Part shown: positions 45,973 to 46,176 of the stretch, piece after piece
Numbering within the stretch: position 1 is the first letter of the stretch
Layout: each line of letters opens with the position of its first letter
Source: Eledone cirrhosa
Lineage: Eukaryota
Reading direction: 5' to 3'
DNA: 64,000 bases
Assembly (NCBI GenBank): GCA_964016885.1
Contig: OZ024754.1
Coordinates: 14,880,001 to 14,944,000, forward strand
The notes under the pieces: model-generated
Told to the model about the DNA's origin: nothing
Seen by the model: only the letters and a program-made list of their open reading frames with translations
Databases searched by the model: none
Position numbers and translations under genes: made by a program

Positions 45973-46176
45973 TTAATATAGATGAGATTCTACAGGACTA
46001 GAACTGTTTCATTCTTTAGAAATCATCAGGAATCTGATACCCAGATTCCTGATGATTTCTAAAGAATGAAACAGTTCTAGTCCTGTAGAATCTCATCTAT
46101 ATTAAAACTTTTATACTCTGCAATATATTGAGTACCTTACTTACTGTGGTTACCTCCGATTCAACCCGGAATAACG
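45973..46176. mobile_element. PLE family B perfect palindrome with two identical HHRs
   Basis: 45973-46105 is a perfect inverted repeat with loop ATACC; HHR (-) 45985-46035 and (+) 46043-46093; stem I AGATTC/GAATCT. Confidence 0.85.

What the first reader, a model, noticed from the sequence alone, without database searches (positions are those of the whole stretch)
45973..46105. Palindromic double-ribozyme cassettes with an HHR on each strand
Seen: a perfect 133-bp palindrome carries two identical, divergently oriented HHRs 7 bp apart. The same architecture recurs in at least three families (13538-13819, 14638-14769, 33169-33483, 37580-37833). A transcript from either strand would contain a ribozyme and its antisense copy, so a long hairpin competes with the catalytic fold. 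Inference: these are either minimal 5'-inverted PLE insertions or a non-autonomous, retrozyme-like fold-back element class.
Basis: partly seen in the sequence, partly recalled or inferred. Interest (0 to 1): 0.75.

Follow-up and report, generated by a model that had tools for sequence, protein, structure and literature searches.

The report
Back-to-back Penelope retrotransposon stubs
This DNA palindrome is two short back-to-back copies of the ribozyme-bearing end of an abundant Penelope-like jumping gene, a known type of insertion and not a self-copying unit, and its turning point likely marks where the element's capped RNA begins.

Summary
The palindrome is real: 64-bp perfect arms, a 5-nt loop and one predicted type I hammerhead per strand. 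The insert is larger than reported (45973-46176), because one arm carries a ~70-nt tail. The same hammerhead lies in the pseudo-LTR of intact RT/GIY-YIG ORFs with Hydra-clade Penelope-like (PLE) motifs. Of 80 sampled loci, 49 hold head-to-head pairs (50 pairs). In 46 of 50 one arm has the tail and the other does not, and either arm may reach further 5'. Apices vary. The commonest apex occurs with the tail on either arm and in three sequence variants, so the cassettes form independently and do not spread as a unit. Sixty of 100 arm starts lie 36-47 nt before the ribozyme cut, 30 nt below a TATA box, often with an extra G. Likely mechanism: both target ends prime on capped sense RNA, the copies run off its 5' end and are joined. 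No RNA data were available. Inverted, tailed PLE ends are published; I did not find the run-off reading in my paper searches. Earlier notes of this scan reached it on other pieces of this genome.

The parts
45973..46036 (-). Short arm: inverted copy of the PLE pseudo-LTR from -46 to +18 (numbering from the predicted hammerhead cut); no tail
46037..46176 (+). Tail-bearing arm from -51 to +89; 46035-46036 is a 2-nt overlap that fits both arms; 46037-46041 forms the hairpin loop
   Evidence: upstream element sequence
46043..46093 (+). Predicted type I hammerhead ribozyme, cut after 46087; stem II of 3 bp over a U.U mismatch
45985..46035 (-). Identical predicted hammerhead on the minus strand, cut after 45991
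46106..46176 (+). Tail (about +19 to +89), on one arm only; in intact elements it runs on into the leader of the ORF
45814..45972 (.). (TA)n target, left flank; no target-site duplication can be read
46177..46210 (.). (TA)n target, right flank
13538..13884 (+). Older head-to-head insertion of a related subfamily with longer arms that include the TATA box; tail on the + arm
14638..14797 (+). Decayed head-to-head insertion of another related subfamily; tail on the + arm
33169..33560 (+). Head-to-head insertion of a second PLE family; tail on the + arm (right end approximate)
37580..37895 (+). Head-to-head insertion of a third, short PLE family; tail on the + arm; both hammerheads depart from other copies

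Best explanation
The cassette is a 204-bp two-armed insertion of a Penelope-like retrotransposon with Hydra-clade motifs, likely made when both cut ends of a (TA)n target each primed reverse transcription of the element's sense RNA and the two copies were joined head to head. Shown: element identity, one tailed and one untailed arm, variable apices. Inferred: one end starts at a distal RT site (about +89) and the other at a proximal site (about +15 to +22); both read through the uncut hammerhead and usually run off the capped 5' end of the RNA at about -45, often copying the cap as an extra G; the two cDNA ends then anneal or are end-joined, each likely serving as template for the other's second strand. 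The hammerheads are passengers. The focal copy lacks the TATA box and ORF and would fold into a long hairpin, so it is likely dead on arrival.
For: Identical hammerhead directly upstream of intact ORFs (L059, L068) and downstream of ORF ends. The model (pLDDT 93.9) has TERT as best fold match (E 5.4e-9). Hydra motifs are conserved in 116 aligned proteins (definitions from PMC8557442 section 11). In 80 loci: 50 pairs, 46 with one long and one short arm, none with both arms ending at +86 to +94 (p about 4e-11 against independent ends); 22 of 22 loci have the tail on one arm only. The tail arm reaches further 5' in 16 of 46 pairs, the short arm in 18, equal in 12, which a single fold-back does not predict. 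60 of 100 arm starts at -47 to -36; TATAAATA starts 30 nt before the A at -45, CCAAT at -84, CACCC box at -60, Inr-like CCAGATT at the site (promoter consensus from my own knowledge). Base before -45 in arms that do not continue along the template: G 16, C 7, T 3, A 1 of 27; hand count of the rows: G 23, C 14, other 3 of 40. In the 33169 family 16 of 38 arm starts fall 73-82 nt before CUGA, outside its ribozyme, so the stop is not tied to the ribozyme helix. In vitro, a PLE protein cleaves and extends both strands, starts RT at two internal sites that define the tail, and does not need HHR cleavage (PMC11167929 parts 1-2). An untemplated 5' G is linked to cap copying in L1 (PMC9341517 passages).
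Against: No RNA run was available, so start site, cap and cleavage are unobserved. The focal tail arm starts at -51/-53, upstream of the proposed start, and 26 of 100 arms run further upstream, which needs read-through or tandem transcripts. Some extra Gs can be read as microhomology with the partner arm, or as a short fold-back on stem I, since -45 to -40 is complementary to +1 to +6; before -44 the split is G 13, T 11, C 2 of 26, and in the 33169 family only 3 of 7 show G. The sequence at -46 to -44 also resembles a 3' splice acceptor, and D. virilis has an intron ending at helix I (PMC4209133). The sample required an exact 36-mer (-29 to +7) in one arm, which favours young copies and under-counts shorter arms. 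The tail (~70 nt) is longer than the published 30-40 bp. No Pfam RT hit and only a sub-threshold GIY-YIG hit. No tree with named Hydra elements was built.
Confidence: 0.72

Rival explanations
1. PLE insertion by single priming followed by fold-back: one cDNA, or an antisense RNA template, snaps back and copies itself, giving the inverted arm (self-priming as proposed for Adineta Penelope elements).
For: Proposed in PMC3846280 discussion (passages). The two arms nearly always share subfamily variants. 18 of 33 short-apex junctions show overlap. Stem I gives the cDNA end a 6-nt self-complement.
Against: Fold-back puts the loop always in the first-made arm, but either arm reaches further 5' (16 versus 18 of 46) and the commonest apex has the tail on either side (6 versus 4). 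It does not explain why the short arm ends at a few fixed points abutting (TA)n, nor the extra G on solo arms (4 of 6 abutting simple repeats, read).
Confidence: 0.14
2. Same two-ended PLE insertion, but the stop near -45 is set by something other than the transcription start: an RT stall at ribozyme stem I, or a splice acceptor with a very short first exon.
For: -45 is the first base of stem I. A T-rich tract and CAG precede -43. An intron ends at helix I in D. virilis.
Against: In the 33169 family the cluster lies about 79 nt before the core, away from stem I. TATA spacing fits exactly. No common exon-like sequence precedes the arms.
Confidence: 0.09
3. A non-autonomous, retrozyme-like fold-back element that is transcribed, self-cleaved and mobilised as a palindromic unit.
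For: Some apices recur (10 of 50 listed share one). 1,175 palindromes have both arms ending within a few bases of -45. A tandem array of the same hammerhead exists.
Against: 24 distinct apex strings among 27 parsed pairs, one row being a parse artefact and 6 further pairs unparsed. The focal apex occurs at 2 places only, and the second has the tail on the other arm and other variants. The 10 copies of the commonest apex differ in polarity, short-arm end and stem II loop variant. Each strand has one sense ribozyme, so no monomer can be cut out, and the hairpin outweighs the fold by about 80 kcal/mol.
Confidence: 0.03
4. Assembly or library fold-back artefact.
For: Perfect arms inside (TA)n; no independent read bridges this exact locus.
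Against: Rule-bound asymmetric ends across many contigs, diverged arms in older copies, and opposite-strand joints plus the same +22 and +88/89 ends in raw reads of three runs of one other study.
Confidence: 0.02

Closest known systems
Hydra clade of C-terminal EN+ Penelope-like elements (Craig et al. 2021, PMC8557442; section 11 and passages read)
   Same: Single RT-GIY-YIG ORF, DKT, CxCX5C linker, CxxC and CxH near the end, no CCHH-type cysteines, canonical HHR, (TA)n target; inverted 5'-truncated copy with a tail at one end only (their Fig. 2 legend).
   Different: Unit about 4.0-4.1 kb (simple repeats in the 3' UTR) against generally under 3 kb; RWR in place of RWK; tail about 70 nt against 30-40 bp; here many insertions consist of the two stubs alone.
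PAc (Poseidon) of Anolis carolinensis in vitro (Frangieh et al. 2024, PMC11167929; parts 1-2 of 4 read)
   Same: Two internal RT start sites that define the tail, both strands cleaved and extended, AT-rich target, HHR cleavage not needed.
   Different: Other clade. In vitro the start site did not differ between strands, whereas here the two ends of one insertion almost always use different sites. No 5' run-off point was described in the parts read.
Dual minimal HHRs on opposite strands in Schistosoma PLEs (Cervera and de la Pena 2014, PMC4209133; parts 1-2 of 4 read)
   Same: HHR pairs close together on opposite strands, read as truncated PLEs.
   Different: There about 100-700 bp apart and minimal motifs; here 7 nt apart with a 4-bp stem III and a U.U pair at the base of stem II.
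Head-to-head Penelope structures of Adineta vaga (Arkhipova et al. 2013, PMC3846280; passages)
   Same: Inverted pLTR shorter than the direct one, optional tail, palindromes at the inverted junction, TATA and Inr-like motifs in the pLTR.
   Different: Explained there by self-priming on an antisense template; the data here point to a capped sense template primed from both ends.
Metazoan non-LTR retrozymes (PMC7229834, passages; bioRxiv 10.64898/2026.07.22.740005, parts 1-2 of 5)
   Same: Type I HHR, non-coding, PLE-derived.
   Different: Retrozymes are head-to-tail repeats with at least two same-strand HHRs; the cassette has one per strand, head to head.
LINE-1 twin priming (PMC11702581, passages)
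   Same: A second RT event from the reciprocal DNA end, resolved by microhomology or end-joining.
   Different: In L1 the inverted piece is another part of the RNA (own knowledge); here both arms copy the same stretch and start at fixed internal sites.

Membership tests
EN+ Penelope-like element | Telomerase-like RT with C-terminal GIY-YIG endonuclease in one ORF | tested here: met
   Intact ORFs next to the identical HHR; best fold match TERT; YRDD in 116 of 116; Pfam GIY-YIG only E 0.0075, below cut-off
EN+ Penelope-like element | HHR in the pseudo-LTR | tested here: met
   two stem I pairs change on both sides across 14 hand-picked copies, 90% of cells paired; stems II and III hardly vary
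EN+ Penelope-like element | 5' truncation, adjacent inverted copy, tail at one end | tested here: met
   46 of 50 pairs; 22 of 22 loci (two shared)
Hydra clade | DKT in place of DKG | tested here: met
   D and K invariant, T 103 / S 13 of 116
Hydra clade | RWK motif | tested here: inconclusive
   Focal ORF has RWR; at that column K 83 and R 31 of 116
Hydra clade | CxCX5C linker; CxxC and CxH around conserved E and N; no CCHH | tested here: met
   112, 116 and 111 of 116; CxxC inside the GIY-YIG core 0 of 116
Hydra clade | Insertion into (TA)n | tested here: met
Hydra clade | Generally under 3 kb | tested here: not met
   ORF about 2.1 kb plus 3' UTR about 1.7 kb, unit about 4.0-4.1 kb (from coordinates); the paper gives this as a tendency
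Hydra clade | Groups with named Hydra RTs in a tree | not testable with these tools
   No named reference sequences held; the paper's supplements were not opened
Non-LTR retrozyme | Head-to-tail repeats with two or more same-strand HHRs | tested here: not met
   One HHR per strand in the cassette; met by the separate 77-78-bp array
Non-LTR retrozyme | Expressed as self-cleaved linear and circular RNA | not testable with these tools
   No RNA holder listed
Element mobilised as a unit (MITE or fold-back type) | Identical internal structure and termini among dispersed copies | tested here: not met
Type I hammerhead ribozyme | Self-cleavage activity | not testable with these tools
   Motif and pairing only; the isolated fold scores -4.2 kcal/mol and is not the minimum (-7.6)

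The most novel reading that the evidence does not exclude
Head-to-head joining is the normal way these PLEs complete an insertion: one enzyme complex copies capped sense RNA from a distal and a proximal start site onto the two ends of one cut, both copies run off the cap, and each cDNA templates the other's second strand. The thousands of mini-palindromes would then be a genomic record of the element's transcription start and RT start sites, and would favour a sense over an antisense template.
Probability: 0.55. Interest if true: 0.55.

Novelty: new member of a known kind. Interest (0 to 1): 0.33.

Why it matters
The architecture itself is a published PLE insertion product. What adds value is the scale and regularity: one long and one short arm per insertion, a sharp 5' stop under a TATA box and an extra G. 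These give exact predictions for an open question (how PLEs form inverted ends, which RNA strand they copy, whether the ribozyme takes part). The family has intact ORFs, and the 40 copies scored for one ORF fragment are 98-100% identical, so it suits the existing in vitro assay. Over a thousand near-perfect hairpins could also feed RNA silencing or editing if read through; this is untested.

Tried and rejected
Rfam at gathering thresholds: 0 matches in the window; the motifs were found by a pattern scan. Pfam on 15 window ORFs: only short hits in repeat-derived frames, no PLE domain; the Hydra-like profile also listed no hit in the window. Pfam on the intact ORF: no RT hit; sequence and profile searches of solved structures gave nothing meaningful; only the fold search placed it. 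A Pfam scan of the whole alignment was not obtained. Upstream of L002 the match to L003 ended without reaching this family's ORF. HHR-cut RNA as template: 3 of 100 arms start at -7 to -2, two of them with identical junctions, so at most a minor route. The 37580 family was not scored for a 5' stop. The DK[TS] regular-expression count and the SDKTKNVY row are uninformative and were replaced. Ungapped walking stops at subfamily variants, so 5' ends were taken from BLAST. Whether L092/L093, L105/L108 and L107/L109 are segmental duplicates was not checked. Paper searches for the run-off or cap reading in PLEs listed nothing that describes it; the library lacks most subscription papers, and no supplements were read.

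Full report
Observation. 45973-46105 is self-complementary except for 5 central bases, so it has 64-bp perfect arms. Each strand carries the same type I hammerhead motif, with 7 nt between the stem I starts. Rfam finds nothing at gathering score. Across 14 hand-picked related copies 90% of cells pair and two stem I pairs change on both sides; stems II and III hardly vary, so they add little. The + arm continues to 46176 and both ends abut (TA)n, so the insert is 204 bp and asymmetric. Positions below are counted from the predicted cut (+1 is the first base after GUA).

What it belongs to. The window lies in a 3.0-Gb animal assembly. A 36-mer of the ribozyme has 9,607 exact matches, part of them in one tandem array. 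A longer copy (L032) leads from the ribozyme through a 1.7-kb 3' UTR to a GIY-YIG-type ORF end. That fragment has 1,724 first-look candidates; the 40 scored are 98-100% identical. Among 12 stretches fetched around such copies, L059 and L068 hold the identical ribozyme directly before an uninterrupted ORF (712 aa from the first Met in L068). A protein search gave 1,134 homologues at E <= 1e-20 among 7,997 candidates scored; 115 of the 120 listed were aligned with the ORF. The model (pLDDT 93.9) matches TERT best. DKT, CxCX5C, CxxC and CxH are conserved and CCHH-type cysteines are absent, as Craig et al. define for the Hydra clade (PMC8557442 section 11). RWK is RWR here, and the element is longer than typical. 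The 33169 and 37580 families also adjoin ORFs that match this profile in the expected orientation (for example L185 and L182; L156, L157 and L175).

Test of unit mobilisation. I took all 80 loci behind the first 100 listed hits (contig C1, 1-63 Mb) and mapped them on a real copy. 49 loci hold 50 head-to-head pairs; 33 arms had no partner within 100 bp, many of them long arms whose partner could lie further off. Apex strings were distinct in 24 of 27 parsed pairs (one row a parse artefact, 6 pairs unparsed). The focal apex occurs at 2 places in the genome; the second has the tail on the other arm and different variants. One search counts 1,175 palindromes with both arms ending near -45; 10 of the 50 listed share one apex (hand count). 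Those 10 have the tail on one side in 6 and on the other in 4, differ in short-arm end and fall into three stem II loop variants. Shared apices are therefore recurrent junctions, not copies of one unit. Each strand has a single sense ribozyme, and the hairpin (-107.2 kcal/mol) far outweighs a fold with one ribozyme enforced (-25.5).

Rules of the insertions. In 46 of 50 pairs one arm ends at +80 or beyond (mostly +89) and the other at +30 or less (mostly +15 or +22; the +28 calls are alignment overshoot into TA); none has both arms ending at +86 to +94. The tail arm reaches further 5' in 16, the short arm in 18, and they are level in 12. Junctions overlap in 18, are blunt in 3 and carry inserted bases in 12 of 33 short-apex pairs. 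The two arms share subfamily variants, so both derive from one source transcript or one active subfamily. 60 of 100 arm starts lie at -47 to -36, 26 further upstream and 14 downstream. TATAAATA starts 30 nt before the A at -45, with CCAAT and CACCC motifs upstream and an Inr-like word at the site (consensus motifs from my own knowledge). Arms that stop at -45 are preceded by G in 16 of 27 cases, where the template has C. In the 33169 family the stop cluster (16 of 38 arms) lies 73-82 nt before the core, away from the ribozyme.

Mechanism. Shown: identity with a PLE pseudo-LTR, the one-long-one-short rule, variable apices, a clustered 5' stop. From the literature: a PLE protein cleaves and extends both strands, starts at two internal sites whose interval is the tail, and does not need ribozyme cleavage (PMC11167929); an untemplated 5' G is associated with cap copying in L1 (PMC9341517). 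Inferred: both ends of the cut prime on capped sense RNA, one at each start site; both copies read through the uncut ribozyme, mostly run off at the transcription start, and are joined, each probably templating the other's second strand. Against this: no RNA data; the focal tail arm itself starts 6-8 nt upstream of -45; some Gs may be microhomology or a short fold-back on stem I; the site also resembles a splice acceptor; and the sample is biased towards young copies that keep -29 to +7 intact.

Artefact check. Raw RAD reads of three runs of one study (organism A; reads 90-99% alike, so possibly a related species) show loose ends at +22 and +88/89 followed by (TA)n and opposite-strand joints at several positions. 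No read or contig bridged this exact locus.

Comparison with what is known. Inverted 5'-truncated copies with a one-sided tail are standard for PLEs (PMC8557442 passages; PMC3846280 passages; PMC2377424 passages), and dual HHRs on opposite strands were reported in 2014 (PMC4209133). The cassette fails the tandem criterion for retrozymes. The run-off and cap reading was not found. Earlier notes of this scan on other pieces of the same genome reached the same reading; I had recorded mine before opening them, and they are not independent evidence.

Verdict. A real feature and a new member of a known kind: a minimal two-armed insertion of a Hydra-type PLE. Interest 0.33. The mechanistic reading is testable and would deserve about 0.55 if confirmed.

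Noticed in passing
G000:C28 from about 30,496,900 (L204-L210); second array at C1:350.2 Mb (L203): A head-to-tail array of the focal hammerhead with a 77-78-bp unit (about -56 to +22), at least 72 kb long; 701 junction-pattern hits, all on one strand. In L204 it begins as one side of a head-to-head insertion whose other arm has the tail. Matching 72-78-nt 'goes back' joints occur in reads of organism A. A candidate very small retrozyme or a satellite seeded by a PLE insertion; it likely explains the strand excess.
   Followed up: partly
window 6966+, 13167+, 14509+, 34030+, 38202+, 38836-, 44101-, 45355-: Further hammerhead-like cores of other families; 34030 and 38202 lie inside larger inverted repeats (33670-34294, 37982-38387) flanked by (TA)n.
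   Followed up: no
window 4315-4523, 38876-39019, 52877-53041: More fold-back palindromes; 4315-4523 abuts (TA)n and has a one-sided extension like the PLE tails, but no hammerhead core was found in it.
   Followed up: no
tails at window 46106-46176, 33484-33560, 37834-37895: Three otherwise unlike families share a TGAGT(A/G)C motif in the tail, a candidate RT-binding or priming signal.
   Followed up: no
L032:4961 and 5540-6286 (minus strand): A hammerhead like the one at window 38202 lies downstream of an ORF fragment with a different cysteine pattern, possibly another PLE clade.
   Followed up: no
L060, L063, L068, L082, L089, L137: PLE insertions sit inside or directly beside one another in (TA)n, including the (TA)n within their own 3' UTR.
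   Followed up: no
window 2319-2509, 29553-29935, 31729-31910, 36688-37503, 39119-39320, 49611-49808, 52233-52724, 59871-60063, 60467-60659: A ~190-bp dispersed repeat with many copies, some in tandem; not examined.
   Followed up: no
window 53000-58840: Long tandem-repeat region whose open frames give spurious short Pfam hits.
   Followed up: no
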